Shown here piece after piece: positions 8,344-48,143 of a DNA stretch of 64,000 nucleotides. Origin of the DNA: Limisphaerales bacterium (GTDB taxonomy: Bacteria > Verrucomicrobiota > Verrucomicrobiia > Limisphaerales > JADLHS01); contig JBGAIM010000010.1 in assembly GCA_044225555.1 (NCBI GenBank), positions 9,457-73,456 on the forward strand, given 5' to 3'. A program made the position numbers and the translations under genes. The notes below the pieces were generated by a model. That model was given only the letters and a program-made list of their open reading frames with translations. It was not told where the DNA came from and made no database searches. Each line of letters starts with the position of its first letter. Position 1 is the stretch's first letter.

Positions 8344-8347
8344 GGCC

Positions 8348-30226: not shown

Positions 30227-30242
30227 GAAGAGCGGTTGCGCT

Positions 30243-31268
30243 TTAGCTCCAATTCAAAACCACCTTGCCACACTCGCCTTTGCTCATCGCGGCGAAGCCT
30301 TGCTCGAATTCCGTGTAGGGCAGCCGATGCGTGATCACCGGGGTGATGTTCAAGCCGCTCTCCAGCATCACGGTCATTTGATACCACGTCTCATACATTT
30401 CCCGGCCGTAAATGCCTTTGATCGTGAGCATGTTGAAAACGACCTTGTTCCAATCAATCGCCATCTGCTCCGAAGGAATGCCCAACATGGCGATCTTTCC
30501 GCCGTGACACATGTTGTCGATCATGTCGCGAAACGCCGTCGGATTGCCGGACATTTCCAAACCGACGTCGAAACCTTCCTTCATGCCCAGTTGCTTTTGC
30601 ACATCCGCCAGCTTGCCGTTCTTCACGTTCAACGCCACGGTGGCGCCCAGCTTCTTCGCCAGGTCGAGACGATAATCGTTCACATCCGTAATCACGACGT
30701 GTCGCGCTCCGGCGTGCTTCGCAATGGCAACGGCCATGATGCCAATCGGGCCCGCGCCCGTGATGAGCACGTCCTCACCCAGCAAATCAAAAGAGAGCGC
30801 CGTATGCACCGCGTTGCCGAACGGGTCGAAGATCGAAGCCACGTCCAGGTCCACGCCGGGCGATTGATGCCACACGTTGGTCATCGGCAGGGAAAGATAT
30901 TCCGCGAATGCGCCGGGGCGATTCACGCCCACGCCCTTGGTGTCCGCGCACAAGTGTCGGCGGCCCGCCATGCAATTGCGGCAGCGACCGCAGACCACGT
31001 GGCCTTCACCGCTCACGATGTCGCCGACGCGGAAATCATTCACGTTGGCGCCGATCTTGACGATTTCACCGACGAACTCGTGTCCCACCACCATTGGCAC
31101 GGGGATGGTTTTTTGGGCCCAGGCGTCCCACTTGTAGATGTGCAGGTCCGTGCCGCAAATGCCGGTGCGCATCACGCGAATCAACACATCGTTGATGCCG
31201 ATGCTGGGTTCAGGAACATTTTCGAGCCAGAGACCGGGTTTACTTTCCTTTTTGACGAGGGCTTTCAT
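30243..31268 (-). CDS. tdh: L-threonine 3-dehydrogenase
   Basis: '[70 protein letters not shown]' is the zinc-ADH Tdh pattern. Confidence 0.9.
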
Positions 31269-31475
31269 AAAGCGTTGGTTGTTAGCCTAGGCAAACCCGT
31301 TAGCGCAAGCCATCACACATTCGGGGGGCCTGCGGAAGGGAGAGCCAAACAAGCAACTTGCAAAACCCCCACTCCCAACGAGAATCGCCCCATGCAGCAT
31401 CGAGCCAAGCCAAACCGATCCTTGGTAGGTCAAACCCACGTTTGGCCTACTCTCTGTCAGGGCTCATCACACTTC

Positions 31476-31937
31476 ATGTATCGGATCGCTTCAATTGTAT
31501 TTGTTCTGTTGCTTGGGGCCTGTGCAACTTCTCCCGTGGCAGACCGTACATCTGATGACATTCGGGAGGCAGTCTTCCGGTATCAGTTCGAAAACTGGAA
31601 CGGTGAGGGTGCAAAGGCATATTATTTGGATTTTGGTGAGGAGGGCGTTGACCCTCCCGATTACTTCATGCTGCGTTTCGTTGGGCATACGCCACCGGTC
31701 AAGAAGGTGTCGCAATGCAAGGTGCGGAACTTACGAGAGGGAGTCATTGACTCTCAGACGGAGGAGCCTGGACGAGTTTTTAGAGTTACAGCCATCAAGT
31801 GGGTAGACGATTCAACTGTCGAGGTGGACGGCGGTTATTACGAGAACGGCTTGAGTGCGTCCGGCAACACCTACACTGTGAAGAAGGAAGACGGCAAGTG
31901 GCGAGTCATCAGAGATAAGTTGCATTGGATTTCATGA
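31476..31937 (+). CDS. small lipoprotein, hypothetical
   Basis: Only the last 153 codons of track ORF 30225..31937 look genuine. The ATG at 31476 gives 'MYRIASIVFVLLLGAC' (lipobox). The stretch is AT-richer. The rest of that ORF is antisense to tdh. Confidence 0.55.
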   Translation: MYRIASIVFVLLLGACATSPVADRTSDDIREAVFRYQFENWNGEGAKAYYLDFGEEGVDPPDYFMLRFVGHTPPVKKVSQCKVRNLREGVIDSQTEEPGRVFRVTAIKWVDDSTVEVDGGYYENGLSASGNTYTVKKEDGKWRVIRDKLHWIS

Positions 31938-32058
31938 GCCCTAACTGTTGTACCTCGACACGTTGTCCGCAGTTTGTGGGATTCTGGAGGCAGGCGGTTT
32001 AGAGAGCAAGCGGAGCAATGATGGACTCTCGCGAGGAGACTTACGGCTGGCAGTCACC

Positions 32059-35000
32059 TCACGGCAAACCGACGGCACGGAAGAACTGCTGGGCGTTCGT
32101 CATTGGCGCGGACAATGTGAAAGGTGACGTTGCCAACGAAGCCAGGTCAGCGAAAACCTGCCAGGAACTTACCAGGTCGGTTCGCGAGTCCACCCGATAG
32201 TGCCCGCCGACGGTGCCCGTCAGTGTTAGATCGAGATTGGTGCCGGTGGCAGCCGCCGTCAGCGCCGGCGTGGCGAGCAACGGTTGAGTTACGGTGAGGT
32301 TGAAGGGAGTTGAACTCATTACAGAGCTGCCATCGTAAATGACCTGCGCCAGCAAGGTGTATTGACCCATGGGGACATTGCTCCAAACCAAACTGAAAGG
32401 AGCAGTGGCGGTTTCGCCCAATAGGATCGGGCCGTTGAAGAATTGCACTTTGCTGATGGCGTGACCATTGGCGGTGACAGTGGCGGCGAGCGGGATGTCG
32501 GTGTTGCCGGGGAAAACGGCGCCCGTGACCGGGCTGGTGAGTTGCACCGCGGGCAAGGCGGTTTGCGAGGCGGAGAACAAGGCCGTGACCTCCGTCGGCG
32601 TCAGCGTGCGATTGAACAAGGCGACTTCATCGAGGAATCCGTTGAGCCGCCGAGTGGAGGAATTGGGGTCGTAACCGAAATAGGTCGTGCCGGGGAAAGT
32701 CTGCGCCGCATGCGTGACGTTGTTGGTGGCCGAACGCAGAATCGAGTTCGTGCCGCGATACATGATGGCGCGCGTGGGCTCGATGGTGAGCGCGAAGAAG
32801 GTCCATTGGTTATCGGGCACGGTCAGGCCGGAGTTCCAGTTGTAGGTGTTGCCGCCGTCGTTCCATGTGTAGCGCAACTCCTGCGCGGTGCCGAAATGCA
32901 CGCCCGCCGTGGTGCCGCCGGATCGACAGAACACGATGCCGGACCAGGACACTTGCGTGCCGTTGCGCCGCACCCAACCGCTGAAGGTGAAATTGGTGGT
33001 ATTCAGGTTAAACGCGGGAATCGCGACGCTGCTGTCGGTGCCGTTGAACTGGGCGGAGAGATTTCCCGGTTCAAAGCCGGCAAAAGGCGAGCCCACTCCG
33101 GCCGCGCCGAAAATGATCCCGCCTTGCCCGGTGCCGTCGCGCGTGCCGATGGCATCGGCGGCAATCGGCCCGGCGTCATTCAACCGCCAATACGCGAGCG
33201 GTCCGGTCGCCAGGGTTTGCGAGAAATACGGTGGCGGCGTCAGGACATTCAACGTAGCGACAGCGCTGGTGACGCTGCCACTGGCGTTGCTCAGCACGAC
33301 GCGGAAGAGTCCGGAGTTGGTGGGCTGCACATTGGTAAGGCTGAGCGAAACCCCGGTGGTGCCGGCGAGGGGAACACCATTCAACTGCCATTGGTAGGTG
33401 AACGGTGGGTTGCCACTCGGCAATGCCGTGAAGGTCGCGGTTTGACCCACGTAAGCGGTTTCACTCTGCGGGCTGACACTCACGCCGGGTGGTCCGACGA
33501 TGCTGCCGGTAATGCTCACGCTGTCAAAGCTGGCCCAGTGGACATTGGGATTCTGCGACGGGGCGGCGTAGGTAAACAAACCCACGTAGAGCCGCGTGGC
33601 AATGCCCGAGAGTGTGTTGGTCCAGACGGGCGTCCAATTCACTCCGTCCGTGGCCACCGAGGTGGTGAACACCGAGCCGACGCGTTGGAGTTTGAGCCAG
33701 CGCTGTCCGCCCAGACCGCTGGACCAGTAAGGCCCACCGGCGTTCTCCATCGTGTTGTCCTGGTAATGAGTGTCGCTGTTCACGGTGGCGAACACGGCGC
33801 TGTATTGCGAACTGCCGCCATTGCCGAGCGGCGTGCCCGGGGTGGAATTGGTGGACTCGCGCATGATTAAACCGGCTTCCCAACTCGAACTGGGCGTCGT
33901 TCCATCCGGAGCGGCCGCCGGGCTGGTGATGCCGGAGACGCGCGCGATGATCGTGCAATTGCCATCCACCGGGCGGCAGAGAAGGTTGAGTCCATCGCCA
34001 ATCAAGGTGTAAGAGCCGCCGTCAATCTTCGCGCCGTACGGCTGCACATGTTCGCTCGCTCCGGCCAGCAGCCACGGGCTCAGCGGCGGGTTGGTGGTGG
34101 TGACGAAACTCAACGGCGAATCGAGCGTGTAGCTGGTGTTGTAGAACAGCCGGGCGCGAATGGCGTTGTTCGTGGCCGACCAGAAGAACGAATTCAACGC
34201 GTACGGCGGGATGTTGGTTTGTCCCCAGAAACTGTCGCCCACGTAAAACTGGACCTTGTTGATCGTGTTCGCATTTGTCACCACGCTGGCCGTGAGCGCC
34301 ACGTTGGAACTGACAATGGTCGAGCCGTTGCTGGGTGAGGTCAGCGTCAGGGCTGGTTCGCCAGCGGCGGGAACGCGCGACCAGGCGCTCGAGGGCACTT
34401 CGATCTTCGCCTGACCCGGGCCTTCGTATTCCAACGTAAGCTGATCGGTGAGATCGCCCGCATCGCTGTTTTGCGTGTCGAAGAAATACTGCACGTTCAC
34501 GGCGTGTTTTCCGGCGGCGAGGGCGGCCCAGCCGCTGAGCGGGGACGGACTGTGATTGCCGTCGTGGTTGATGGTCAGTGCGCCATCCACATAGAGCTTG
34601 CTGCCGGCACAGGATTTGAGCGTGAAGCTATAGATGCCGTCCGCGGGCACGGTGATAAAGCCCGTGTAGTTGAACGCATAACCGTTGCGACGTCGTCGCG
34701 GCGTGAGGTCGGGATAGGAAACCGCCCCCTGATAAACCGGGGTGAGCGCAGCGAAGTTGGGCATGCTGGACCAGTTGACGCCGTTGTACTGCCAATAGTA
34801 GCTGGTTGCGGATTCGTAGTATTTGTGACCCAGACCGGAAACCGTGACCGGCGGATTGGTGGCAACGTTCAATGCGACGGCTGCAGGGGTGATTAGCACC
34901 GGCGTGTTGGTGCGGTCAAAAATATCCACGATGCTCAGCCGGACATACGGTGTCGCCACCGAGCCGACGTTGAGCAACTGCTGGCGCACCTCGGGGTCGC

Positions 35001-36123
35001 GTTGAAACACGGCCAGAGCAGGGGAGCCGGAATACGCCGGGTTATCGAACACTTCGAGAACGTAACCAAGCTGCGGCGAACTGGTGAGCGGCATTTGCCA
35101 CGCGACGATGACCTGATTGCCGTAGGTTGAGGCGCTGGCGTTCGTGACCAGAATCGGGTCCAAGTCAGCAGTGGTTGGTTGGCTCGCCAGAATCAAACCG
35201 AAGGAAGCGTAGTTGTTTACGGCGGCGATGGTCGTAATGCCCGGCGGCTTGTTGGTGAGCAGGCTGACGGTCGGTTGGTTCGTTGCGACCAGCATGTAGA
35301 GATTGCCAGACGTCGGCGGAAGGTTGTTGGTCACGTTAAACAGGTAGGAACTGCCACTGCACGTCTCGAAAAACGCGGCGGTGGAATTCTCAATCAAACC
35401 GCACGTGCCGTTCTCGCCGAGTTGCCGAACCGACGGCGTGAAAAGTTTCGCCGCGGTCCACGCTCCGTTCTTGTGCGAATAGACATTGCGATAATCGGTG
35501 CGGCGCGGATTGCTGTTACCGTGGCCGAAGTCCTCCTGAAAACCGCTCAGGCCGTTGATGCCGGTGGCACTGAACGGAATCTGCATGGTCGCGATATGAA
35601 ACCAGTTGCTCGTCGCCGGATCGCGCAACCAGCGTCCGGAAAACGCCAGATGCGGCGTGCCGTCGGTGGGTTGCCAGATGCGGAACACTTCGCGATACCA
35701 ACGATTGGTGGTGATGAGCGGCCAGTCACCGGCGACCTTGCCCGACGCGCCTTCGCCCACGTGTGGCGGCGCATACATGTTGGAGGCGCTCCAATACGCA
35801 GTCACTGCGGCGCCTGGCACTGCCGTGCCGCTCGGGGGCCAGAAACTCCAGATGATGCTGCACGGGGGATTGTCGGTGGGCCCGGACGGCATGCCGCCGT
35901 AGAAATAGCACGACCCACCATCCGACCCGGAGATCGTCTGGCTGTAGATGGCGTTGTAAGTGGACTCGGCCCAATACGGCCAGCGCACTTCCTGGATGAT
36001 GCCGTCGGCGCCGGAAGCAGTATTGAAGTTGTGATACTCAGCGCGGGCGCGCGACGGAACGAGCCAAAGAGAGGCCAATAGAAGGCCGGCGGCTAGGTGA
36101 GTTTTGTAGCTGAGCAATTTCAT
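32059..36123 (-). CDS. giant secreted lectin-like protein: DUF3472-like N-domain + PA14 + Ig-like/I-set + LamG + C-terminal F-F-R domain
   Basis: The ATG at 36123 gives the signal peptide 'MKLLSYKTHLAAGLLLASLWLVPSRARA'. DUF3472-like: 'CYFYGGMP...IIWSFWPP...VGEGASGKVAGDWPL...WYREVFRIW...LSGFQEDFG'. PA14-like: 'YAFNYTGFITVPADGIYSFTLKSCAGSKLYVDGALT'. I-set-like: 'FTYQWQLNGVPLAGTT...SGLFRVVLSNASGSVTSAVATLNV'. LamG-like: 'LNGFLDEVALFNRTLTPTEVTALF'. Confidence 0.8.
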   Translation of the reverse strand: MKLLSYKTHLAAGLLLASLWLVPSRARAEYHNFNTASGADGIIQEVRWPYWAESTYNAIYSQTISGSDGGSCYFYGGMPSGPTDNPPCSIIWSFWPPSGTAVPGAAVTAYWSASNMYAPPHVGEGASGKVAGDWPLITTNRWYREVFRIWQPTDGTPHLAFSGRWLRDPATSNWFHIATMQIPFSATGINGLSGFQEDFGHGNSNPRRTDYRNVYSHKNGAWTAAKLFTPSVRQLGENGTCGLIENSTAAFFETCSGSSYLFNVTNNLPPTSGNLYMLVATNQPTVSLLTNKPPGITTIAAVNNYASFGLILASQPTTADLDPILVTNASASTYGNQVIVAWQMPLTSSPQLGYVLEVFDNPAYSGSPALAVFQRDPEVRQQLLNVGSVATPYVRLSIVDIFDRTNTPVLITPAAVALNVATNPPVTVSGLGHKYYESATSYYWQYNGVNWSSMPNFAALTPVYQGAVSYPDLTPRRRRNGYAFNYTGFITVPADGIYSFTLKSCAGSKLYVDGALTINHDGNHSPSPLSGWAALAAGKHAVNVQYFFDTQNSDAGDLTDQLTLEYEGPGQAKIEVPSSAWSRVPAAGEPALTLTSPSNGSTIVSSNVALTASVVTNANTINKVQFYVGDSFWGQTNIPPYALNSFFWSATNNAIRARLFYNTSYTLDSPLSFVTTTNPPLSPWLLAGASEHVQPYGAKIDGGSYTLIGDGLNLLCRPVDGNCTIIARVSGITSPAAAPDGTTPSSSWEAGLIMRESTNSTPGTPLGNGGSSQYSAVFATVNSDTHYQDNTMENAGGPYWSSGLGGQRWLKLQRVGSVFTTSVATDGVNWTPVWTNTLSGIATRLYVGLFTYAAPSQNPNVHWASFDSVSITGSIVGPPGVSVSPQSETAYVGQTATFTALPSGNPPFTYQWQLNGVPLAGTTGVSLSLTNVQPTNSGLFRVVLSNASGSVTSAVATLNVLTPPPYFSQTLATGPLAYWRLNDAGPIAADAIGTRDGTGQGGIIFGAAGVGSPFAGFEPGNLSAQFNGTDSSVAIPAFNLNTTNFTFSGWVRRNGTQVSWSGIVFCRSGGTTAGVHFGTAQELRYTWNDGGNTYNWNSGLTVPDNQWTFFALTIEPTRAIMYRGTNSILRSATNNVTHAAQTFPGTTYFGYDPNSSTRRLNGFLDEVALFNRTLTPTEVTALFSASQTALPAVQLTSPVTGAVFPGNTDIPLAATVTANGHAISKVQFFNGPILLGETATAPFSLVWSNVPMGQYTLLAQVIYDGSSVMSSTPFNLTVTQPLLATPALTAAATGTNLDLTLTGTVGGHYRVDSRTDLVSSWQVFADLASLATSPFTLSAPMTNAQQFFRAVGLP

Positions 36124-36596
36124 TGGTGAGATCAGAGTCAAGGAGCAGAAGTTTTGTGTTCCGGTCATTTCTTCCCATCACTTCGTGGCGGCGGCGACCG
36201 CGGTGGTGGAGGTTTTGAGAAAGTCACGACGGGTGACAACCGGGTCAGCTTGTTTTTTCATGGAACGTACTTTCACCACAGCCCGCAAGACCTGTCAGTC
36301 GCCCGATCGCGGAGCGATTCAGAGTTGTCCAGCCCAGCGCGCCTTGATTGGAGATAACGCCGCAACCAGCGGTCTGGTGACCGGCTATCGGCTGGAACGG
36401 TTGCGCGGGGAAATGTCCGAGTTTGTGAGCAGCCCATGGAGTTCACGGCGGATGCCAGCCCAGTGAAAATCCAGTTGCCCGCCGCGACAAATGCACCCCA
36501 AGTGCAGCACCACGCGACCCAAAGCCATCTGGGTGAGATAAAGTTTCATGAGGGTGAAGCCGGCGGCCAGGGATTCGTGACCGATCGCGGACTAGT

Positions 36597-36953
36597 TCAT
36601 CGCTTTGGCGCGCCTTCTTTCAAGGCCTCAATCGCCTTTTTGGCCGAGGCATCGCCTTTGGCCGCCGCATCGTTCATGCGATAATTGAGACCGCCCAAGG
36701 CGGTTTGGACGGCGACCAACTGGTCGGGGGTGATGCTCTTGGTCAACAACGAACGATAGTTCGTGCCGGCGGTCAGGTAATCATTGGCTTTGTCGGCTTT
36801 CAGTCCTTGTTCCCAAGCCTGCTTCATTTCGGGAGTGGCGTCTTTGAAGGCGGCCAGGTCTTGTTTACTCAGACTGTAGCCGTTGTCGCCGCAGCCTTGG
36901 AGGAACAGGCAGGCGGAAGCCAGCAGGCAGGCGAGGGTCAGTGATTTTTTCAT
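36597..36953 (-). CDS. small helical lipoprotein, hypothetical
   Basis: The ATG at 36953 gives 'MKKSLTLACLLASACLFLQGC' (lipobox). It starts 14 nt downstream of the pseudopilin gene. Confidence 0.55.
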   Translation of the reverse strand: MKKSLTLACLLASACLFLQGCGDNGYSLSKQDLAAFKDATPEMKQAWEQGLKADKANDYLTAGTNYRSLLTKSITPDQLVAVQTALGGLNYRMNDAAAKGDASAKKAIEALKEGAPKR

Positions 36954-36967
36954 AACCGGCAGTCCCT

Positions 36968-37747
36968 TCAACGTCCGTTCGCGCTGCCCGGATTGCACCA
37001 GACGCTGTTCTTGGCTGTGGACAGCGCGAGTCTTGCCCACTCCTGATACTTCACATATTCAACGGCGCCACTGACGACGATCACGACGCCGCCATTCTTG
37101 CCGTGCCGGCGGCCCAAGGCGCCGTCCACGGTCGGATCCGGGAAGCTTGAACCGTCGTTGTAAGCCGTCCCACCACTCGGGGCGTACTCATTTGGCTCCC
37201 AGGAAATGTAGGCGTCCTGCCGGAAGCTGGAGATCTTGTGACCTTCGTTGATCGCGCCGAAGCCGCAGACCGCTCCGCTCATGATGTAAGTGCCCAACTT
37301 GTTGGCGCGAACCGTGTAGCCCGGCGTGTTGGTGGCCAGATCGGTCGGGCAGAAATATAGGTCCTTGTTTTTGATGTAGGGCCAGAGCAATCCGCCTTCG
37401 TAGGCCAGGCGCGGGTTCATGTTGAAAGGTGCGGCGGCGAGATTGGGGGGAGCGCTGCCCACCGGGGTATAGAGCCAGCCCGGCAGGGGTTGGCCATTCG
37501 CGCCCGTCCATGGCGGATTCCAGTTGGGGTGCGGCAGCTTGTCGGCGAAATCGTTGCTATACATGTGAGCCGCGAGGCCCAACTGTTTGCAGTTGCTCAC
37601 GCACCGGGTGCGATGCGCCTTGTCCTTGGCCTTGGCCAGGGCGGGCAGCAACATGGCCGCCAGGATGGCGATGATCGCAATCACGACGAGCAGTTCGATG
37701 AGGGTGAAACCGGCGCCACGTTGGCGACCATTCAAAGATATGTTCAT
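36968..37747 (-). CDS. prepilin-type N-terminal cleavage/methylation domain protein (type II secretion pseudopilin-like, DUF1559/H-X9-DG-like family)
   Basis: The ATG at 37747 gives '[41 protein letters not shown]', the classic G|FTLIELL leader. The C-terminal '[21 protein letters not shown]' resembles a degenerate H-X9-DG box. The track start at 37777 is TTG. Confidence 0.85.
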
Positions 37748-37911
37748 GGGCTGTTGGTCGGAATTCTTCAGGTTCAAGAATCGAAAAAACTATGCCTGCT
37801 CATTTCTCCGGAAACCATCCCACATTCGGGGGGCTTGGATTGTACAAAACAGCGGCCAGGAATTGCTTCCTGGCCGCTGGGTGATTTTTAACTTCCGTCC
37901 GGATTATCGGC

Positions 37912-40014
37912 TCAAGGTGCCGCCCGGAAGAATCGGGCAGGCTCCGTCGGCAGGAACGGATAGGCGGGGAGCGCTGCGCCGGGGACCGGAGTCCAGGTGG
38001 CCGTCGGACCAAGCGTCGGCGAACTGAGGAGCGTGCCAAATGGCCACGTCACGGAGTTGCCGATGCCCGCCGTACCGAAGTTGTAGCGCAGTTTGAGCGC
38101 CGCGGTGTCCACCAGCGCGTCGCTGGTGAAGACGGAGGTAATTTCGCCCGCAGTGAGAACGCGGTTGTAAATGCGGAAGTCGTCCATCTGGCCGTCATAA
38201 CGCTTCCAGTAACTGTCGTGCGAGCGGCCCAACTCGATCGCTTGCGCGGTCGGCCAAGCCCAGGCGGCCGTGTTGGCCTGCGTGCCCTGAGAGGCGCCGT
38301 CCACGAAGATTTCGATGCTGCCGGAAGCCGATTGATCGTAGGTGACGGCGACGTGGTGCCAGTTGCCGTCGGGCAGATAGCCGCCGGCAAAACTGTTCGC
38401 CCCGCCGGAGCACTGGACGAAGATGTTGCCGGCGTCGTTAAGCACGATCACTGCGCCGGAAGTGGTGCGGCGGTCAAAGATGATGGCGCCTTCATTGCCC
38501 GGACCGGGAACCGGGGCATCCGCCTTCATCCAGAACGTGAAGGTGCCGGTGGTGGAATCAAAGTCCGGACTGGCGTCAACCTTGATCTGACTGTTGTTGG
38601 CCGTGGAGAATACTTCCACGCCCGTGCGGGTCACGGGGATGGCCGCAACATCCGTGCTGGAGGCGAGCCAGGTGGTGAGGTAGTTCGCGCCTTGATGGGG
38701 TGTTCCCACGGGCTTGGAATCCTCGATCATTCCGCCGGGCACAATACCGACGACCAACGGCGCACCGGTGCCAACCATGAAAAGCGCGTTGATCTCGCTC
38801 TGGGTGAGAGCGCGATTGTAAACGGCGAACTCATCCTCCTGGCCGAGATAATTGCGATCGGCGCGGTCGGGTTGGTTGCCGGCGAAGCCCAGCGGCGAGT
38901 AAACCGCCAGAGGGGCGTGGGCCACGGTGTTTACCGACGACTTCAAGGTCAGTCCATCGGACATGTAGAACGTGGCCTTGGTGGGTTCAACCACCATGGC
39001 GACAAACGTCCAAGTGTCTGCGGGAACAACGAGGCCGGAACCCCAACCCCAGTAGTTGCCTTTCCAGTGGTAGCGCAACTCGCCTTGGGGACGACCGCTG
39101 GTGTTCTCAATGTGCATGCCGCCGTCGCCAAGCCAGCAGGGCCAGCCGAGATCGGCCGTTGACGGAGTACCATCACGCTTGAGCCAGCCGGCGACCGTGA
39201 TGGTGTTGACGTTCAGGTCCGGGCAAATTGGGGCGCCGATGTGCCCGTAAGTAGCGCCACTGGTGATGGCAACGTTGGTGGATTCCAAGCCCGGTTGAGT
39301 CGGCGGACGAGGTCCAACCGTGCCCGGCACCACGTCAAACCCGTATGCCCCGTTCCAGGCAGTTCCGAGCGTGCCGCTGTTCACGGGGAATGGCGCCGTC
39401 GGACCGGCCGGATCGTTCAGTCGCCAATAACCAACGGGTGAACTGGCTTGCACCAATGTCCCATAATCGATGCTGCGGGCGGCGTTGGTGCCGTTCTGGT
39501 AGTGCGCGAGAATGTCTTCCGCGCTGAGGGCGGTATTGTAGATGGCCACTTCATCAATGCCCCCCTTGAAGAGCAGCAGGTTGGCGCCGGTATCAATATC
39601 ATTACGTCCACCGAGCCGCATCTGGACGGAGGTGTTGGGGGTGAAGCCCGGGGCGCTCAAATCGGCGCCTTGTTGAACGCCGTTGACATAGAACCTTTGG
39701 ATTCCGGTATTCCCGTCATAAACACCCACCAGATGGGTCCAGACTCCCGGCACCACATCCACGGTTGAACTGATGGTTCGCCCGCTCGCGCCGGAGTAGG
39801 TGCGGAACGACCACTTGGTGGTGGCGTTATGGGCGAAGAACAGGAAACCGTCCGAAGTGCTGGCGCCGCGGTTGTAGAGGGGCGACCGGGCCGAGGTGCC
39901 AATTACCTCTGCTGGCTTGACCCACAATTCGGCGGTGAAGGTGGCCGGGTTCAATGCCGCATCAAACGGGATGTCAATAACCTTGCCGTCGTTGCCCGTT
40001 CTGCCTGAACTCAA
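37912..40014 (-). CDS. 3x LamG (concanavalin-like) repeat protein with C-terminal F-F-R domain; probably the C-terminal part of a frameshift-split gene
   Basis: LamG_3-type endings 'DEVAIYNTALSAEDILAHY', 'DEFAVYNRALTQSEINALF' and 'DDFRIYNRVLTAGEITSVF'. There is no signal peptide, only a TTG 'start', and the frame stays open upstream to 40128. Confidence 0.7.
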   Translation of the reverse strand: MSSGRTGNDGKVIDIPFDAALNPATFTAELWVKPAEVIGTSARSPLYNRGASTSDGFLFFAHNATTKWSFRTYSGASGRTISSTVDVVPGVWTHLVGVYDGNTGIQRFYVNGVQQGADLSAPGFTPNTSVQMRLGGRNDIDTGANLLLFKGGIDEVAIYNTALSAEDILAHYQNGTNAARSIDYGTLVQASSPVGYWRLNDPAGPTAPFPVNSGTLGTAWNGAYGFDVVPGTVGPRPPTQPGLESTNVAITSGATYGHIGAPICPDLNVNTITVAGWLKRDGTPSTADLGWPCWLGDGGMHIENTSGRPQGELRYHWKGNYWGWGSGLVVPADTWTFVAMVVEPTKATFYMSDGLTLKSSVNTVAHAPLAVYSPLGFAGNQPDRADRNYLGQEDEFAVYNRALTQSEINALFMVGTGAPLVVGIVPGGMIEDSKPVGTPHQGANYLTTWLASSTDVAAIPVTRTGVEVFSTANNSQIKVDASPDFDSTTGTFTFWMKADAPVPGPGNEGAIIFDRRTTSGAVIVLNDAGNIFVQCSGGANSFAGGYLPDGNWHHVAVTYDQSASGSIEIFVDGASQGTQANTAAWAWPTAQAIELGRSHDSYWKRYDGQMDDFRIYNRVLTAGEITSVFTSDALVDTAALKLRYNFGTAGIGNSVTWPFGTLLSSPTLGPTATWTPVPGAALPAYPFLPTEPARFFRAAP

Positions 40015-40114
40015 CTCCGCCGATTTGTTGGCATCGCCGACAATCGCACCCGGCTGTTGGAACGTGACGTAACGTTTCGCGACGCCATTGTCCGCCGATC
40101 CAGTGCTGCCGCTA

Positions 40115-41338
40115 TTAGACCGGGACTTTCACGGCGAGCGTTGCCGAAGCGGACACCATCGGGCCGACCGGGTTGTTGACTTCGACCGTGTAGGTGCCGG
40201 CCGAGCTGCTGGTGACACTGGCGATGGAGAAGGTAGCACTGGTGGCGCCGGGGACTGCCACATTGTTCGACTTCCATTGATAGGTGAGTTGTCCGCCGGT
40301 AGCGGCGACGGTAAAGGTAGCTGGATAGCCTTGATAGAGGTTCTGGGAGACGGGCGCTTGTGTAATCACCGGCGCCACGACGTTTTGGATTGTTACCTGC
40401 GCCACCGCGCTGGTTACGGCGCCGAAGGCATTCGTGACGACGACGTCGTAAGCGCCGGTATCGCCGATAGCGACACTGGAATTGGTGTAATTGGCGAAAT
40501 TGGCGCCCGGAATTTCTGTCCCGCCTTTGCGCCATTGATAGTGAAGCGTTGGAGCTCCGGAAGCTTGGGAGGCCAATGAGAAAGACCCGCCCGGGAAGAT
40601 CAGGCCCACCGGTGGCTGCGGGTCCACTTCAATCAACGGCGGGTTGTTGGCGGCGGGTGTATAGGTGATGACGATCCCGGCCAGGCAGGAGCGGATGGAA
40701 GAATTCGTCTTGGCGAAGCCTTGAATCGTCACCGAGTCGTTGGCGCTCAATGTGGCAAAGGCAGGGCTGACGGTGCTGTCGCCGGCCAGACCACCGGCGA
40801 AACTCGGAGTATAGTTGGCCAGATATTCGAGCGTGTTCGTGTCCGTGGCCGAGTAAACGCTGACGGGCATGAAGTCAGCCCCGCTGTCAGTTGCCGCGAT
40901 GGTCTTGATGGTAAAGCTGGATGCAAAAGCGCGCAGGCCGGTCAATTTGACCTTGTATCCATAGTCCGTGTCGTCGAGGTAACCATAGATGATCTGGTTG
41001 TCACCCGCCGTCGGGACCGCGGCGTAGAGGCTGTAGGTATTCTTGCAGGACCAAGTCACTTGGAGGTCACCGCCGCCCGGCACCGCGAAGGTTCCGTTGG
41101 TTCCCACGCCACCACCGGCGCCCGAGTTGGACACCATGGGCGCGTTGTACCAATTGGCCAGCGGTATGCCGAAGGCGCCCGCCGAATCCGTGAGCGTGCC
41201 GTAAGGCGTGCCGCCCCAGTTATCCGCGAAGTTGATCCCGATCTGGGCGCCGTGACTGGCCGCACCAAGCATCATGGCGGCGGCCGGTATTACGAGGAGC
41301 CCTTTCTTCAACTGAATGGGTAATAGTCTTCTTTTCAT
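40115..41338 (-). CDS. secreted protein with unknown N-domain + two Ig I-set-like domains; probably the N-terminal part of a frameshift-split gene
   Basis: The ATG at 41338 gives 'MKRRLLPIQLKKGLLVIPAAAMMLGAASHG'. Ig domains: 'LHYQWRKGGTEIPGAN...GAYDVVVTNAFGAVTSAVAQVTI' and 'LTYQWKSNNVAVPGAT...GTYTVEVNNPVGPMVSASATLAV'. The ORF ends right after the second Ig domain. Confidence 0.7.
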   Translation of the reverse strand: MKRRLLPIQLKKGLLVIPAAAMMLGAASHGAQIGINFADNWGGTPYGTLTDSAGAFGIPLANWYNAPMVSNSGAGGGVGTNGTFAVPGGGDLQVTWSCKNTYSLYAAVPTAGDNQIIYGYLDDTDYGYKVKLTGLRAFASSFTIKTIAATDSGADFMPVSVYSATDTNTLEYLANYTPSFAGGLAGDSTVSPAFATLSANDSVTIQGFAKTNSSIRSCLAGIVITYTPAANNPPLIEVDPQPPVGLIFPGGSFSLASQASGAPTLHYQWRKGGTEIPGANFANYTNSSVAIGDTGAYDVVVTNAFGAVTSAVAQVTIQNVVAPVITQAPVSQNLYQGYPATFTVAATGGQLTYQWKSNNVAVPGATSATFSIASVTSSSAGTYTVEVNNPVGPMVSASATLAVKVPV

Positions 41339-41686
41339 TTTGGGTTTTGCTTTGGGTTTGAGGCGAGACTCAGGTAACGGGGGCAACCATACACTCGCTT
41401 CGATTCATGGGATTGGAATCGGTAGTTCGCTCGCCATTGACCGGAAGGCATCCCTGACCTTCACTATCAACACGAAGTAACCACCAGTTTGATTTTATGT
41501 CTCTTGATCCGGATTCCACTGGTCAAAGTCGCCAGCTTGACTCGAACGACCGCGCGGAAGTTTTGCGTCATTGGCGACCTGCCTACTCTAGCCTTCGTAT
41601 GATTCAGCACCATCCCACAAACGGGGGGGGAATGCTGCGGAGCACAAAGCAGGCGCCGCGAGAATGAGCAACCGTGCCGAGCTGGT

Positions 41687-43246
41687 TCAGGCGACGTAGC
41701 CAAAAGCCCGGCAGTAAGGGGACAGCTTTGCCTGAATCGGCGCCAGTGCTGCGGCATAACGCTGCCACCGTCCCACCGCACGTTGATAAACCGGCTGCGT
41801 CACATCGTGGTAGGTCGGCGCGTAGAGCACCTTGCGCCGGGCGGTTTCGTGATAGCGCGCTTGATCCGCGTGCCAGGTCAGCCCGAGAAATTCGGTGGCG
41901 CGCCGTCCTTCTCCCTCCACGTCCGCGACTACATCTTCATAGCGCGTCTCGATCCAATCGAACCCACCCAGCTCCCGCATGCGCAGCCACACGTCCATCA
42001 AATCCGCGTAGTGCTTGGCCGTGCGCTCCAGGCTGAGAAAGTTCACGTTGGTGGCGTTGAGCATGATGTTCAGAAAGAAGCAACTGATGATCACATCACG
42101 CGGATCACGCAAAGCAATGATGACCTTCAATTCCGGAAACACCCTTAGCCAGATGTTGAGCGACATCGTGAGGGAGGGATTTTTGTCCAGCAACACACGC
42201 GCCGTGGGTTCACTGGGGATTTCACGCAGGAGGCTTTTCACATAGCGTCGGCGCATGTCAGCTCGCCGGGCCGCCGGAAGCGAATCCAGACTGCGCAACG
42301 CGGCGCCCGGACCTTGCAGTGGGGCCAGATGGTTGCAAATCTCCTGGGTGAACGCCATCGGTTCGTCGAAGGCTAGTGCGTCCGGGTGGGCGTCCAGAAT
42401 CTGTTCCAGCAAGGTCGTGCCGCTGCGTGGATGTCCGCCCAGGAAGGCAATCTGGTAGCGCTCCTTCGAGGCGTGGGCTTCCGCGCGCCAGCGGCGGATC
42501 ACTTCGGGAGTCATCTCTGCGAGCAATGCGCGCCGCTGCCGATCGCCTTCGTCGTAGCCACGCTCCAACAACGAAGTGTCCGTGATGGTTCGGACCTGCG
42601 CCTTGGCCTCGCACAGCCAGCGCATGGCTTCGTCGTAGTGACCGAGCTGGTCCAGCACCACGCCCAGCAGATGTCGGCTGGCATACTTCACGTACGGATA
42701 CTGCGGCCCGTCCTTGATCAAATCCCGCAATTCCGTCTCGGCCTCAGTGTGCCGCTTCTTGCGATGCAGGAGAAAGGCCCGGAAGTACCGGACTTGATCG
42801 TCGCGCGGATGTTTCGCCCGACACGCTTCGACACATTCCCACGCTTCATCCAGTCGCCGCTCCTTCTCGAACCACACGGCGAGATTGATGCGCGCGTCCA
42901 CCATATCCGGCGCCGCGGTGACGGCGCGCTCGAAACAGGTGCGGGCCTCGTCCAGTTGCCGCAGACCGAGATACTGATTGCCAATCATCCCGAGCAAGGA
43001 GGCGTTTGCCGGCGCGAGAGCCATCGCTCGCTGATAGGCCTGATTGGCCTGCTTGAAATCCAGTTCGCCCGCCGCCGCGTTGCCCAACTCAAACCACAAT
43101 TGGGGGATCGCTGGATACTTGGCAGCCAACTGCCGATAACCCGCCAGCGCCGGACCGGGTCGTCCGCCGAGAAGCTGCTCTTGGGCCTTCTGCCAGCGGG
43201 CGAGATCGCGCGGATTGCGCTGCAGCATGCTCTGCGTGCCTTGCAT
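41687..43246 (-). CDS. TPR-repeat sulfotransferase (PAPS-dependent, cytoplasmic)
   Basis: N-terminal TPR-like repeats. The 5'-PSB motif 'HPRSGTTLLEQIL' and the 3'-PB-like 'IALRDPRDVIISCF' are present. No signal peptide. A start at 43246 (MQGTQS) sits 1 nt after the upstream stop according to track coordinates. Confidence 0.8.
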   Translation of the reverse strand: MQGTQSMLQRNPRDLARWQKAQEQLLGGRPGPALAGYRQLAAKYPAIPQLWFELGNAAAGELDFKQANQAYQRAMALAPANASLLGMIGNQYLGLRQLDEARTCFERAVTAAPDMVDARINLAVWFEKERRLDEAWECVEACRAKHPRDDQVRYFRAFLLHRKKRHTEAETELRDLIKDGPQYPYVKYASRHLLGVVLDQLGHYDEAMRWLCEAKAQVRTITDTSLLERGYDEGDRQRRALLAEMTPEVIRRWRAEAHASKERYQIAFLGGHPRSGTTLLEQILDAHPDALAFDEPMAFTQEICNHLAPLQGPGAALRSLDSLPAARRADMRRRYVKSLLREIPSEPTARVLLDKNPSLTMSLNIWLRVFPELKVIIALRDPRDVIISCFFLNIMLNATNVNFLSLERTAKHYADLMDVWLRMRELGGFDWIETRYEDVVADVEGEGRRATEFLGLTWHADQARYHETARRKVLYAPTYHDVTQPVYQRAVGRWQRYAAALAPIQAKLSPYCRAFGYVA

Positions 43247-43247
43247 C

Positions 43248-44147: not shown

Positions 44148-44156
44148 GTTGGATCG

Positions 44157-46622: not shown

Positions 46623-46728
46623 TTTAGAGAAATAACTGCAACGGGCGACATGGGATAATGGCTCGGTTCTCAGCGCAATCACAATTTGGAGCGGGAGGGG
46701 CGCAAATTCACACTGCACCGAATCGTAG

Positions 46729-46866
46729 CGTCAGTCATCCTGCCTGACGTAGAGTGCGGCATCCTGCCGCGCAGCACAGACCCTCGTAACACCCGAGATG
46801 GTCAGCCATACGAATGTTTAGCCAAAACGTAGGGGGCTTCCACCGGGCTGGAACCCCGGCTCTACG
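46729..46866. repeat. cluster of inverted repeats/hairpins in a 417-nt intergenic region
   Basis: Three hairpins: cgtcag-tcatcctgc-ctgacg (46729-46749); gcggca-tcc-tgccgc (46756-46770); and a long imperfect one, cgtag-gggg(c)ttcc-accgggct-ggaacccc-ggct-ctacg (46828-46866). The 9-mer catcctgcc occurs at 46736, 46760 and 46980. Confidence 0.5.
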
Positions 46867-47135
46867 ACAGGCAAAGAGGCACGCTGCTACAAGGCCTGCG
46901 CATCCCCAAACAGCGGTCCTGACCAAGGCTGATGCTGACTTGGGAATTGCGCTAACTCTATTTGTAATGCTGCCGAATACATCCTGCCGACCTGACTTGG
47001 CCGCTTGAAAGTTGCCCGCTGTGGCGACACATTCAGCCTTAGCAAGATGATTGAAGAACGCTCCAACTTCAGTCGCGCCCAGATCACGGGGTTTCTGCCA
47101 ACCTCCCGCAGCGCCGAACGCAATCCCTAAGGTTT

Positions 47136-47597: not shown

Positions 47598-47617
47598 CCG
47601 ATACCCTGCTGCGCATT

Positions 47618-47694
47618 CGGACGGTTCCGAAGAATTTGCGCGCGACTATTTGCAGCCAACCGGGCATTTCCGGAGGCGGTCGTTGAGCTCTTGG
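47618..47694. repeat. intergenic ~77-bp repeat, copy A
   Basis: cggacggttccgaagaatttgcgcgcgactatttgcagccaaccgggcatttccggaggcggtcgttgagctcttgg. It aligns with copy B, sharing an identical 17-mer cgcgactatttgcagcc plus the blocks accgggc, tttccgg, ggcgg and tgagc. Confidence 0.6.
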
Positions 47695-47726
47695 TCGTGG
47701 TCTAGGCCACATTCGTACCTCTACCT

Positions 47727-48098: not shown

Positions 48099-48143
48099 AT
48101 TCGTGGTCAAATAAAGCGCTGCAGTGCCGCCCCGCTGGGCAGG

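What the first reader, a model, noticed from the sequence alone, without database searches (positions are those of the whole stretch)
32059..41338. Pseudopilin + small lipoprotein flanked by giant lectin-like proteins: candidate cell-surface glycan-capture module
One minus-strand array encodes, in order:
- the Ig+LamG protein (41338 to 37912, split as described above)
- a prepilin-type protein with the canonical G|FTLIELL leader (37747 to 36968)
- a helical lipoprotein, 14 nt downstream (36953 to 36597)
- after a 430-nt gap, a 1354-aa DUF3472-like/PA14/Ig/LamG protein (36123 to 32059)

All the large proteins carry carbohydrate-binding-type folds (LamG, PA14) and the shared C-terminal tag. No secretion ATPase, secretin or prepilin peptidase is present locally.

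In PVC bacteria these DUF1559-like pseudopilin paralogs are hugely expanded and functionally uncharacterised. Tight linkage to lectin-domain giants suggests the pseudopilin acts as an anchor or fibre presenting or partnering these binding proteins. That is inference only.
Basis: partly seen in the sequence, partly recalled or inferred. Interest (0 to 1): 0.62.

Follow-up and report, generated by a model that had tools for sequence, protein, structure and literature searches.

The report
Co-regulated pseudopilin, lipoprotein and lectin-like giant
A pilus-subunit-like gene, its small lipoprotein partner and a neighbouring giant lectin-like protein form a conserved set that shares a promoter motif and is expressed together in wastewater Verrucomicrobia, giving a concrete handle on a huge, uncharacterised pilin family.

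Summary

- **The Ig+LamG "split" is a deletion.** This assembly lacks 98 nt at 40118|40119. Every public run that covers the site, and an ENA contig, carry an intact 1154-aa gene.
- **The array is not one operon.** A strong terminator hairpin (37850-37879) separates Ig-LamG from the pseudopilin. The pseudopilin and lipoprotein form their own bicistron. A gap holding a gene relic separates them from the PA14/LamG giant.
- **The lipoprotein belongs to a sizeable family** (484 clusters) with no Pfam or NCBIfam model. It lies next to this type of pseudopilin in all 20 assessable loci.

The linkage is real. Ig/LamG giants carrying the same unmodelled C-terminal [FY][FY]R domain sit beside this pseudopilin subfamily through many rearrangements. 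Relatives often add a Y_Y_Y sensor kinase, a LuxR-type regulator and a TPR-sulfotransferase.

A conserved palindromic operator, at fixed spacing from a -10 box, precedes the pseudopilin, Ig-LamG and an ADH operon. In eight small metatranscriptomes nearly all RNA contigs in this 16-kb stretch fall on the pseudopilin (all eight) and Ig-LamG; none shows the downstream giant.

Physical partnering (fibre display or secretion of the lectin-like protein) is still inference.

The parts
36968..37747 (-). Prepilin-type pseudopilin (259 aa). Leader ends in Gly-1, then Phe+1 and Glu+5. The large globular domain of about 200 aa carries 4 conserved Cys and an RHGK-x-GG..VSG motif.
   Evidence: Pfam N_methyl 34.6 bits and DUF1559 26.8 bits (N-terminal part only). 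GspG model matched only at positions 2-56, below its cutoff. More than 8000 homologues. Alpha1 residues 14-37 are invariant except position 31 (90% or more) and position 32. PDB sequence hits cover the helix only. The AlphaFold2 model (pLDDT 69) has no Foldseek match.
36597..36953 (-). Small lipoprotein (118 aa, LQGC lipobox), a TPR-like four-helix bundle. It is the dedicated partner of the pseudopilin.
   Evidence: No Pfam family. 68 close and 484 distant cluster hits. AlphaFold2 pLDDT 87, with only generic helical matches. It lies immediately next to a pseudopilin in all 20 assessable loci and in L018-L022. An RNA contig, 36588-37272, spans the junction.
37912..41338 (-). Ig-LamG giant: Sec signal, unknown N-terminal domain of about 230 aa, 2 Ig domains, 3 LamG_3 domains and a C-terminal [FY][FY]R tail. 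In this assembly it is broken by a 98-nt deletion at 40118|40119.
   Evidence: Pfam. Frame analysis. Intact 1154-aa ORF in L012 and the 98 extra letters in public runs. RNA contigs at 37881-41567.
37850..37879 (-). Intrinsic-terminator-like hairpin (13-bp stem, 9 GC pairs, TTTTGT tail) ending the Ig-LamG transcript.
   Evidence: RNA contigs stop at 37881 and resume at 37767.
37815..37833 (-). Operator CCCCCCGAATGTGGGATGG. It lies 20 nt upstream of the -10-like CATAGT (37789-37794) of the pseudopilin promoter.
   Evidence: Alignment of upstream regions. Motif searches. Read from the sequence. RNA contig ends at 37760-37767 fit a start near 37781.
41610..41628 (-). Second operator copy, CCCCCCGTTTGTGGGATGG. 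It lies 19 nt upstream of the -10-like TAGAGT (41585-41590) of the Ig-LamG promoter.
   Evidence: RNA contigs reach 41566-41567. The same motif precedes Ig-LamG-type giants in L009, L114, L115, L121, L130, L133, L161 and L172.
41687..43246 (-). TPR + PAPS-type sulfotransferase with no signal peptide. It is the most conserved neighbour of this family of giants.
   Evidence: Pfam Sulfotransfer_3 and TPR. Translation. Adjacent to the giant in about 25 of 40 GTDB loci and in L001, L003, L008 and the P0118 locus. No RNA contig in the small metatranscriptomes.
32059..36123 (-). Giant A (1354 aa): DUF3472-like N-terminus, PA14, Ig, LamG_3, Big_7 and a [FY][FY]R tail. It is a recurrent neighbour but is not shown to be co-regulated.
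   Evidence: Pfam. A 73% identical orthologue lies downstream of the pair in L104. Similar giants follow the pseudopilin in the P0118 locus and L129. No operator found. No matching RNA contig: the only contigs touching it run on into unlike sequence.
36178..36261 (-). 27-codon Tat-signal relic (MKKQADPVVTRRDFLKTSTTAVAAATK*) in the gap between the lipoprotein and giant A.
   Evidence: Sequence. An intact GFO_IDH_MocA gene occupies this position in the P0118 locus.
31310..31328 (-). Third operator copy, CCCCCCGAATGTGTGATGG. It lies 20 nt upstream of TAGGCT, ahead of the ADH gene (30243-31268).
   Evidence: Also found before ADH in L003 and L108.

Best explanation
**What it is.** This is a regulated module of two transcription units.
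- The pseudopilin and lipoprotein form a bicistron.
- The Ig-LamG gene is transcribed separately.
- Both are driven from promoters with the same palindromic activator site. An ADH-headed catabolic operon carries a third copy.

**Likely regulator (inferred).** In relatives, a sensor kinase with a periplasmic Reg_prop/Y_Y_Y domain and a LuxR/GerE-type response regulator sit next to these genes. That regulator probably binds the operator. The pair is not in this window.

**Shown**
- Gene order, the terminator and the operator copies.
- Co-expression of the pseudopilin and Ig-LamG.
- Conservation of the partnership through rearrangements.
- A cleavable prepilin leader with Glu+5 and a nearly invariant assembly helix.

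**Inferred**
- A prepilin peptidase encoded elsewhere processes the pseudopilin.
- A type II secretion or type IV pilus machine, also elsewhere, polymerises it into a short fibre.
- The Sec-exported Ig-LamG protein is handled by that fibre, probably through its C-terminal [FY][FY]R domain. Its three LamG lectin-like domains are then displayed at, or released from, the cell surface to bind polymer.
- The small lipoprotein acts as a dedicated adaptor or chaperone for its pseudopilin.
- The surrounding fucosidases, galactosidases, sulfatases and Thr/Ser catabolic genes suggest the target is a sulfated, fucosylated glycoprotein or glycan.
For: **Own transcription unit**
- Terminator hairpin between Ig-LamG and the pseudopilin.
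- RNA contigs cover 36588-37767 and 37881-41567, with the hairpin region empty, in runs from two studies.
- One contig spans the pseudopilin/lipoprotein junction.

**Shared control**
- A 19-nt operator lies 19-20 nt from a -10-like hexamer in front of the pseudopilin, Ig-LamG and ADH.
- The palindrome centre sits about 42 nt upstream of the predicted start, and RNA contig ends fit that start.
- The operator recurs before pseudopilins and Ig-LamG-type giants in at least 15 other loci. It is almost never found elsewhere in about 2 Mb of fetched sequence.
- The kinase and regulator are adjacent in L008, L010, L011, L104, L118-L125, L161 and L172.

**Partnership**
- An Ig/LamG giant is adjacent in most loci of this pseudopilin subfamily despite inversions and reordering.
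- Reciprocal search from the giant: 10 of 12 close loci carry the pseudopilin.
- Among 75 distant paralogue loci, tail-bearing ORFs cluster beside the pseudopilin (permutation P about 0.002).

**Filament competence**
- Leader, Phe+1 and Glu+5; alpha1 residues 14-37 invariant but for two positions.
- The pseudopilin is the one gene in the 16-kb stretch with an RNA contig in all eight small metatranscriptomes.

**Literature**
- A PulG-like pseudopilin sits in an alginate utilisation cluster of a verrucomicrobium with 67 paralogues, and a pseudopilin is over-expressed on alginate (PMC13274419).
- Pili-like fibres of Planctomycetes bind dextran (PMC5394234).
- LamG and PA14 are among the commonest modules grafted onto pilins (PMC8179133).
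Against: - No direct evidence of contact between the pseudopilin, lipoprotein and giant.
- The pseudopilin's globular domain has no recognisable fold match, and its model is only moderate (pLDDT 69).
- Half of the pseudopilins linked to these giants lack the lipoprotein. Many tail-bearing giants, including two in this window, have no pseudopilin neighbour. Neither partner is therefore obligatory.
- The RNA evidence comes from assembled contigs at 2-11x depth, which are a poor measure of expression. Three deeper runs cover everything evenly and may contain DNA.
- The identity of the operator-binding protein is inferred, and the kinase/regulator pair is not in this window.
- In this particular assembly the Ig-LamG gene is frameshifted.
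Confidence: 0.4

Rival explanations
1. The pseudopilin is a cargo-specific subunit of a type II secretion pseudopilus. It is co-induced with its cargo and helps push the folded Ig-LamG protein, and other tail-bearing exoproteins, through a secretin into the medium. It does not display them. The C-terminal [FY][FY]R domain would be the recognition signal.
For: - The N-terminus is closest to GspG.
- Neighbouring tail-bearing proteins include secreted enzymes: subtilase, reprolysin and GSDH-like proteins.
- The tail is a discrete C-terminal domain, as expected of a sorting signal.
- PMC13274419 proposes type II secretion of alginate lyases next to such a pseudopilin.
Against: - Classical type II systems use one major pseudopilin and have no known linear C-terminal signal.
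- The globular domain is far larger than that of GspG, and the GspG model is not met.
- Most tail-bearing proteins have no adjacent pseudopilin.
- No T2SS genes are linked in any locus whose called genes were listed.
Confidence: 0.22
2. The pseudopilin's own large globular domain binds the substrate, as a fibre-borne analogue of SusD-like surface glycan-binding proteins. Ig-LamG is simply another binding protein of the same regulon, and the two do not touch.
For: - There are thousands of divergent paralogues with an invariant assembly helix and variable heads.
- Some subfamily members have no giant next door (L099 and L011).
- The pseudopilin is the only gene here with RNA contigs in all eight small runs.
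- Dextran binds planctomycete fibres (PMC5394234).
- A pseudopilin is over-expressed on alginate (PMC13274419).
Against: - The head domain is highly conserved within this subfamily, with no recognisable carbohydrate-binding fold.
- Adjacency to tail-bearing giants exceeds random placement.
- A specific pseudopilin subfamily tracks a specific family of giants.
Confidence: 0.18
3. The pseudopilin and lipoprotein do not form a filament. They make a membrane-anchored periplasmic accessory, such as a ligand-binding co-sensor, for the adjacent Y_Y_Y sensor kinase. The prepilin helix would serve only as an anchor.
For: - The kinase and regulator lie immediately upstream of the pair in L008, L010 and L011.
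- Pfam's short name for DUF1559, SBP_bac_10, follows its naming for solute-binding protein families (name; that reading is my own recollection, not tested).
Against: - Conservation of Gly-1, Phe+1, Glu+5 and near-invariance of the whole alpha1 helix across thousands of paralogues is what polymerising subunits show. A simple anchor would not need it.
- The pair occurs without the kinase in this window and in L003, L005 and L009.
- There was no significant Foldseek match at all, so none to solute-binding proteins.
Confidence: 0.1
4. The neighbourhood is coincidental. Prepilin-type genes and giant secreted proteins are both very abundant in these genomes, so they end up adjacent without any functional link.
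For: - Four tail-bearing giants occur in 64 kb.
- Only 5 of 75 distant paralogue loci show immediate adjacency.
- Giant A has no operator and no RNA support.
Against: - Adjacency survives inversions and reshuffling across many species-level genomes.
- The two units share an operator and are co-expressed.
- Within loci, tail-bearing ORFs all lie within about 2 kb of the pseudopilin although flanks reach 8 kb.
Confidence: 0.1

Closest known systems
Type II secretion major pseudopilin GspG/PulG, and type IV pilins in general
   Same: - Class III signal peptide with Gly-1, Phe+1 and Glu+5.
- Hydrophobic alpha1 helix.
- The N-terminus aligns with GspG, PilA, PilE and geopilin structures.
   Different: - The head domain is about 200 aa, against roughly 100 aa in GspG.
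- The head has no sequence or fold match.
- The GspG model scores 38 bits against a cutoff of 89.
- The gene lies away from any secretion machinery.
- It belongs to a family of thousands of paralogues.
DUF1559 / H-X9-DG prepilin-type paralogue families of Planctomycetota, Verrucomicrobiota and Lentisphaerota
   Same: - N_methyl plus DUF1559 hits.
- Massive paralogy.
- PVC distribution.
- Function unknown in the literature (PMC10632474).
   Different: - Only the first 53 of 268 DUF1559 profile positions match.
- The H-X9-DG model is not hit. The motif here is RHGK-x-GG-x5-SG, with one extra residue and Ser in place of Asp.
- This subfamily has a dedicated lipoprotein, a cognate family of giants and an operator. 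I found none of these described in the papers searched.
PilY1/PilC-type non-pilin adhesins carried by minor pilins, and modular pilins bearing LamG or PA14 modules (e.g. Streptococcus sanguinis PilC)
   Same: A lectin-type module (LamG, PA14) is functionally combined with a pilin carrier, and a distinct carrier domain is proposed to dock the adhesin to the fibre (PMC8179133).
   Different: - Here the lectin domains are on a separate Sec-exported polypeptide, not fused to the pilin.
- No family beyond Ig and LamG-type domains, so nothing PilY1-like, was detected in Ig-LamG.
- Docking is hypothetical.
Bacteroidota polysaccharide utilisation loci with hybrid two-component sensors and SusD-like surface binding proteins
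   Same: - A sensor with a Reg_prop/Y_Y_Y periplasmic domain.
- A regulon of binding proteins plus glycoside hydrolases and sulfatases.
- In a verrucomicrobial relative, a pseudopilin is over-expressed on the substrate (PMC13274419).
   Different: - No SusC/SusD-type family was hit among the proteins scanned here.
- The kinase and regulator are separate proteins.
- The candidate binding and handling parts are a pseudopilin and a LamG giant.
Pilotin and assembly lipoproteins of type IV filament systems (PulS/OutS, PilF/PilW, TadD)
   Same: A small helical or TPR-like lipoprotein encoded with pilus components.
   Different: - No sequence or structural match.
- It is encoded once per pseudopilin paralogue, and sometimes twice (L108, L112), rather than once per secretin.
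- It is absent from half of the pseudopilins linked to these giants.
C-terminal sorting domains (T9SS CTD, PEP-CTERM)
   Same: A discrete domain of about 60 aa at the extreme C-terminus of many large secreted proteins.
   Different: - No Pfam or NCBIfam model matches, including those families.
- It lacks a PEP motif, a transmembrane helix and a basic tail.

Membership tests
Type IV pilin / pseudopilin superfamily (class III signal peptide) | Short basic leader ending in Gly, Phe/Met at +1, Glu at +5 and a hydrophobic helix of about 20 residues; N_methyl model above threshold | tested here: met
   [13 protein letters not shown]|[26 protein letters not shown]07963 scores 34.6 bits (cutoff 21.2) and TIGR02532 28.2 bits (cutoff 16.3).
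Type IV pilin / pseudopilin superfamily (class III signal peptide) | Cleavage and N-methylation by a prepilin peptidase, and assembly into a filament | not testable with these tools
   No peptidase, ATPase or platform gene in the window. This needs biochemistry or microscopy.
GspG (T2SS major pseudopilin, TIGR01710) | Full-length match above the curated cutoff, including the compact globular domain | tested here: not met
   38.4 bits against a cutoff of 88.85. Only profile positions 2-56 are matched.
GspG (T2SS major pseudopilin, TIGR01710) | Encoded within a gsp operon with GspD/E/F | tested here: not met
   No such genes in the 64-kb window, or in the relatives' loci for which called genes were listed.
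DUF1559 (PF07596, SBP_bac_10) | Pfam model above the gathering threshold | tested here: inconclusive
   26.8 bits against a cutoff of 23.3, but only profile positions 2-53 of 268 are matched. Homologues carry precomputed PF07596 hits.
H-X9-DG prepilin-associated domain (TIGR04294, named from memory) | C-terminal His-x9-Asp-Gly motif; NCBIfam model hit | tested here: not met
   No such family is listed at E<=0.01. The sequence has H-x10-SG ([14 protein letters not shown]), which is conserved in the family.
Bacterial lipoprotein | Signal peptide with lipobox [LVI][ASTVI][GAS]C | tested here: inconclusive
   The window has ...LFLQG|CGDN, with Gln at -2, which departs from the pattern as written. 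The Cys is invariant across 39 family members, and the Gly before it is invariant among the 19 close homologues.
Pilotins (PulS/OutS, PilF/PilW/TadD) | Sequence or fold similarity to a known pilotin | tested here: not met
   The best NCBIfam hit is BamD-like at E=0.003, far below its cutoff. Best Foldseek E-value is 0.79, with generic TPR, MIT and 14-3-3 matches.
LamG_3 / ConA-like lectin domain proteins | PF13385 above threshold | tested here: met
   Three copies in the 37912-40014 ORF (230 bits in total) and one in giant A (75.6 bits).
PilY1/PilC tip adhesins | C-terminal PilY1-type beta-propeller | tested here: not met
   No such domain in either giant. The C-terminus is the unmodelled 60-aa tail.
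PEP-CTERM or T9SS C-terminal sorting domains | Model hit; for PEP-CTERM, a PEP motif plus transmembrane helix plus Arg-rich end | tested here: not met
   No Pfam or NCBIfam hit at E<=10 for six tails. The tails end ...RFFRAAP / ...QFFRAVGLP with no hydrophobic helix.
Sus-like polysaccharide utilisation locus | Adjacent SusC-like TonB-dependent transporter and SusD-like protein | tested here: not met
   Neither family was hit among the proteins scanned in the window.

The most novel reading that the evidence does not exclude
DUF1559-type pseudopilins are the substrate-inducible subunits of the polymer-binding fibres of PVC bacteria.

- Each paralogue, sometimes with its own small lipoprotein, would pair with a cognate exported giant.
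- The giant's unmodelled C-terminal [FY][FY]R domain would be a new docking or sorting signal for a type IV filament machine.
- Together they would form a pilus-based functional counterpart of Sus-like capture systems, switched on by a glycan-sensing two-component system through the operator found here.
Probability: 0.2. Interest if true: 0.85.

Novelty: new variant of a known kind. Interest (0 to 1): 0.6.

Why it matters
Prepilin-type DUF1559 proteins are the largest paralogue group in *Planctopirus limnophila* (68 copies) and number 67 in a verrucomicrobium, yet have no assigned function (PMC10632474, PMC13274419).

The protein make-up of the polysaccharide-binding fibres seen on Planctomycetes is also unknown (PMC5394234).

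This locus gives a defined and testable set:
- one pseudopilin subfamily;
- a dedicated lipoprotein;
- a cognate lectin-like giant with a discrete C-terminal domain;
- an operator and a candidate regulator;
- evidence that the pair is expressed in wastewater communities.

If the partnership is physical, it would define a new way of coupling type IV filaments to large exoproteins. It would also help explain polymer foraging in bacteria that lack Sus-type systems.

Tried and rejected
- **Programmed frameshift or two separate genes for Ig and LamG.** Rejected: the break is a 98-nt deletion private to this assembly.
- **Single operon.** Rejected on the terminator and the RNA gap.
- **Fold assignment of the pseudopilin head and the lipoprotein by Foldseek against the PDB.** No significant match. 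PDB sequence hits cover only the pilin helix.
- **Tail as PEP-CTERM or T9SS CTD.** No model hits.
- **Deep metatranscriptomes X3-X5.** Coverage is flat over genes and intergenic DNA, so they were uninformative.
- **Wider context search for the distant lipoprotein family.** I scanned already fetched loci with an HMM of my own instead.
- **GTDB search with the close lipoprotein alignment.** It returned only two species.
- **Sigma-70 consensus scan.** It found nothing useful. The promoters lack a -35 box, which fits activator dependence.
- **Operator count in the window.** The raw count at 3 mismatches (4 matches) is not above the shuffled expectation of 3.4. The argument rests on position, spacing and conservation.
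- **Literature searches** (DUF1559, H-X9-DG, pseudopilin with Verrucomicrobia or Planctomycetes). They found no functional study.

Full report
**1. What is in the sequence**

The window has about 60% G+C. The finding sits in a long run of minus-strand genes.

- **Giant A, 32059-36123.** DUF3472-like N-terminus, PA14, Ig, LamG_3 and Big_7.
- **Lipoprotein, 36597-36953.** 118 aa, no family hit, lipobox LQG|C.
- **Pseudopilin, 36968-37747.** 259 aa with leader [13 protein letters not shown]|FTLIELL. It has an N_methyl hit and a DUF1559 hit covering only the N-terminal part. It resembles GspG only over the first 55 residues and scores below that model's cutoff.
- **A 3x LamG_3 ORF and an Ig ORF** upstream of the pseudopilin.

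The surroundings look like a glycan or glycoprotein foraging region:
- three sulfatases, GH29, GH95 and two GH2 enzymes;
- an astacin giant;
- two DUF5077/DUF3472 proteins;
- a Tdh-like ADH, a PALP enzyme and a Kbl-like aminotransferase;
- a TPR-sulfotransferase, a CBM9 protein and a transglutaminase-like protein.

This is the only prepilin-type ORF in the window. None of the ORFs of 200 aa or more that I scanned is a secretion ATPase, secretin or prepilin peptidase.

**2. The "split" Ig+LamG gene**

The two ORFs are in different frames and overlap at 40115-40128.

I laid contigs from eight public runs on this site: DNA and RNA, from several studies, some otherwise 100% identical. Seven of them have a contig that carries 98 extra letters between 40118 and 40119. 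In the eighth (X2), contigs end inside that insert.

ENA contig L012 carries the same 98 nt. They encode PGSYEAVVAQTKPLVWFRESETTVPQLITGSAA and give a single 1154-aa ORF. Relatives have single ORFs of 900-1300 aa.

The break is therefore a deletion private to this assembly. It is either an artefact or a rare variant. It is not a programmed frameshift.

**3. Transcription units**

*Structure.*
- A 13-bp-stem hairpin followed by TTTTGT lies at 37879-37850. That is 33 nt after the Ig-LamG stop and about 100 nt before the pseudopilin start.
- The pseudopilin and lipoprotein are 14 nt apart.
- The lipoprotein and giant A are about 470 nt apart. That gap holds a 27-codon Tat-signal relic. In one relative, an intact GFO_IDH_MocA gene occupies this position.

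*RNA evidence.* I used eight small metatranscriptomes, seven of them from two studies (X25-X28 and X29-X31).
- Within 30000-46000, nearly all assembled RNA contigs fall on 36588-37767 (pseudopilin and lipoprotein) or 37881-41567 (Ig-LamG). The pseudopilin has contigs in all eight runs; Ig-LamG has them in all eight too, though only a single short one in X26 and X35.
- Nothing covers 37768-37880.
- No matching contig falls on giant A, the sulfotransferase or CBM9. Only stray fragments touch the ADH gene and the transglutaminase-like gene.
- One contig spans the pseudopilin/lipoprotein junction.

Three deeper runs cover everything evenly, intergenic DNA included, so they do not discriminate. All of this is contig evidence at low depth. 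It shows presence, not absence.

**4. A shared operator**

Aligning the regions upstream of the pseudopilin from eleven loci exposed a conserved palindrome. An example is CACCCAAATGTGGGTG.

The window holds three copies of an extended form, CCCCCCG(A/T)(A/T)TGTG(G/T)GATGG. All three are intergenic and on the coding strand. Each lies 19-20 nt upstream of a -10-like hexamer.

| Operator | -10-like hexamer | Gene downstream |
|---|---|---|
| 37815-37833 | CATAGT | pseudopilin |
| 41610-41628 | TAGAGT | Ig-LamG |
| 31310-31328 | TAGGCT | ADH, head of the ADH-PALP-DUF5077/3472 string |

- The palindrome centre lies about 42 nt upstream of the predicted start. There is no -35 box. This is the geometry of an activator-dependent promoter (established knowledge of class II activation; inference here).
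- The predicted starts, near 37781 and 41577, sit 10-20 nt beyond the outermost RNA contig ends (37760-37767 and 41566-41567).

The core motif recurs in relatives, in front of the following genes:
- the pseudopilin in L003, L008, L009, L011, L104-L106, L121 and L125;
- Ig-LamG-type giants in L009, L114, L115, L121 (two giants), L130, L133, L161 and L172;
- ADH in L003 and L108.

It is almost absent elsewhere in about 2 Mb of fetched DNA.

One caveat applies. The raw match count in the window at three mismatches is not above the shuffled expectation. The case rests on position, spacing and conservation.

**5. Conservation of the neighbourhood**

*Lipoprotein.*
- It has 68 close homologues. A profile search finds 484 clusters at 50% identity. 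No Pfam family was hit, and the only NCBIfam hits are far below their cutoffs.
- In all 20 assessable loci retrieved through the lipoprotein, a pseudopilin of this family is the immediate neighbour. It is usually 0-20 nt upstream. In one locus it lies downstream of two tandem lipoprotein genes.
- The pair also appears where the pseudopilin is only 37-49% identical (L018-L022).
- The reverse does not hold. Half of the pseudopilins that sit beside Ig-LamG giants lack the lipoprotein.

*Giants.*
- An Ig/LamG giant is adjacent in the window, L001, L003, L008, L009, L010, L104, L105, L098 and the P0118 and P0160 loci.
- An Ig-only giant is adjacent in L005.
- None was seen in L011 or L099.
- Order and orientation differ between loci.

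*Reciprocal search* from the giant's N-terminal domain in species-level GTDB genomes.
- The pseudopilin subfamily is adjacent in 10 of 12 loci with at least 43% identity, and in 14 of about 40 overall.
- The commonest layout is: DUF5077/3472 <- lipoprotein <- pseudopilin | Ig-LamG -> TPR-sulfotransferase, then <- regulator <- kinase.
- The TPR-sulfotransferase is the giant's most faithful neighbour, adjacent in about 25 of 40 loci. It has no signal peptide, so it is cytoplasmic. This is unexplained.

*Sensor and regulator.* The Reg_prop/Y_Y_Y sensor kinase and GerE-type regulator flank the cluster in many relatives, but they are not in this window.

*Giant A.* Giant A-like proteins follow the pseudopilin in L104 (73% identity), L129 and the P0118 locus.

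**6. The C-terminal tag**

Four giants in the window end in a stretch of about 60 aa of the form ...W..V...[FY][FY]R...

- An HMM built from such tails hits 37 ORFs, 36 of them at the extreme C-terminus.
- No Pfam or NCBIfam model matches.
- Near more distant pseudopilin-lipoprotein pairs, the tail-bearing neighbours are a DUF5122 propeller/LamG giant, a GSDH-like protein and a reprolysin-like protein. A subtilase with Ig domains, whose end is cut by the contig, is another neighbour. The relationship is therefore with large exported proteins of this kind in general, not with lectins alone.
- In 75 loci of unrelated PVC pseudopilin paralogues, the 10 tail-bearing ORFs all lie within about 2 kb of the pseudopilin, and five lie within 500 nt. 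The permutation P is about 0.002.

**7. Structures**

- The pseudopilin profile matches solved pilins only over the alpha1 helix.
- Its AlphaFold2 model has pLDDT 69 and pTM 0.64. It shows the long helix plus a four-stranded sheet, but has no Foldseek match.
- The lipoprotein model (pLDDT 87) is a four-helix, TPR-like bundle with only generic helical matches.

**8. Interpretation**

*Shown.* The pseudopilin-lipoprotein bicistron and the separately transcribed Ig-LamG gene are a conserved set. They share an operator and are expressed together in the same RNA samples.

*Inferred.*
- The adjacent-in-relatives two-component system drives them.
- The pseudopilin polymerises. The evidence is Glu+5 and the near-invariant alpha1 helix.
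- The fibre displays or exports the tail-bearing lectin-like protein, with the lipoprotein as adaptor.

*Rivals.*
- Cargo-specific type II secretion.
- The pseudopilin head as the actual binder.
- A non-filament co-sensor for the kinase.
- Coincidental adjacency.

*Literature.*
- The DUF1559 family is uncharacterised (PMC10632474).
- A PulG-like pseudopilin sits in an alginate utilisation cluster of a verrucomicrobium with 67 paralogues, and a pseudopilin is over-expressed on alginate (PMC13274419).
- Planctomycete fibres bind dextran (PMC5394234).
- LamG and PA14 modules are often grafted onto pilins (PMC8179133).

**9. Verdict**

The role of giant A and any physical partnering remain open.

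I rate it a new variant of a known kind: a type IV filament subunit embedded in a glycan-foraging regulon, with a dedicated lipoprotein and a cognate giant.

Noticed in passing
window 40118|40119: The window lacks 98 nt that are present in all seven public runs spanning the site and in ENA contig L012. The deletion frameshifts the Ig-LamG gene, so this is a likely assembly error or a rare variant.
   Followed up: yes
window 36178-36261 (-): A 27-codon Tat-signal relic (MKKQADPVVTRRDFLKTSTTAVAAATK*) lies in the gap between the lipoprotein and giant A. It is probably the remnant of a GFO_IDH_MocA gene that is intact at this position in a relative (P0118 locus).
   Followed up: partly
window 11411-14704 (-) and 15853-18654 (-): The astacin giant and the GH25/PATR giant end in the same [FY][FY]R C-terminal domain of about 60 aa, which has no Pfam or NCBIfam model. 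Neither has a pseudopilin neighbour.
   Followed up: partly
window 31310-31328 (-), upstream of ADH 30243-31268: A third operator copy with the same spacing to a -10-like box sits here. It suggests that the ADH-PALP-DUF5077/3472-DUF3472-GH29-aminotransferase string belongs to the same regulon. The motif is also found before ADH in L003 and L108.
   Followed up: partly
window 41687-43246 (-): The TPR-sulfotransferase has no signal peptide, so it is cytoplasmic. Yet it is the most conserved neighbour of this family of Ig-LamG giants (about 25 of 40 GTDB loci). What it sulfates is unknown.
   Followed up: partly
window 31476-31937 (+): A small lipoprotein-like ORF (MYRIASIVFVLLLGAC...) is convergent with giant A and lies in a lower-GC patch. 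The 570-aa plus-strand ORF listed here is probably spurious upstream of it.
   Followed up: no
window 46718-49005: A lower-GC (0.57) stretch holds only small plus-strand ORFs, one of them lipoprotein-like (47727-48098). It interrupts the minus-strand gene run and may be an inserted islet.
   Followed up: no
L001 10607-11332, L104 9552-9749, L113 9381-10190, L102 3160-3363: In several relatives a second, different prepilin-type gene follows the lipoprotein, giving pseudopilin-lipoprotein-pseudopilin. The window has none.
   Followed up: no
L108 8995-9348 and 10687-11040; L112 8866-9270 and 9318-9773: Some loci carry two paralogous copies of the small lipoprotein. In L112 both lie upstream of the pseudopilin.
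   Followed up: no
window 6889-11335 (-): A PSCyt1/DUF1549/DUF1553 protein is followed by a DUF1501 protein, the usual planctomycete-type pair. This is ordinary and unrelated to the finding.
   Followed up: no
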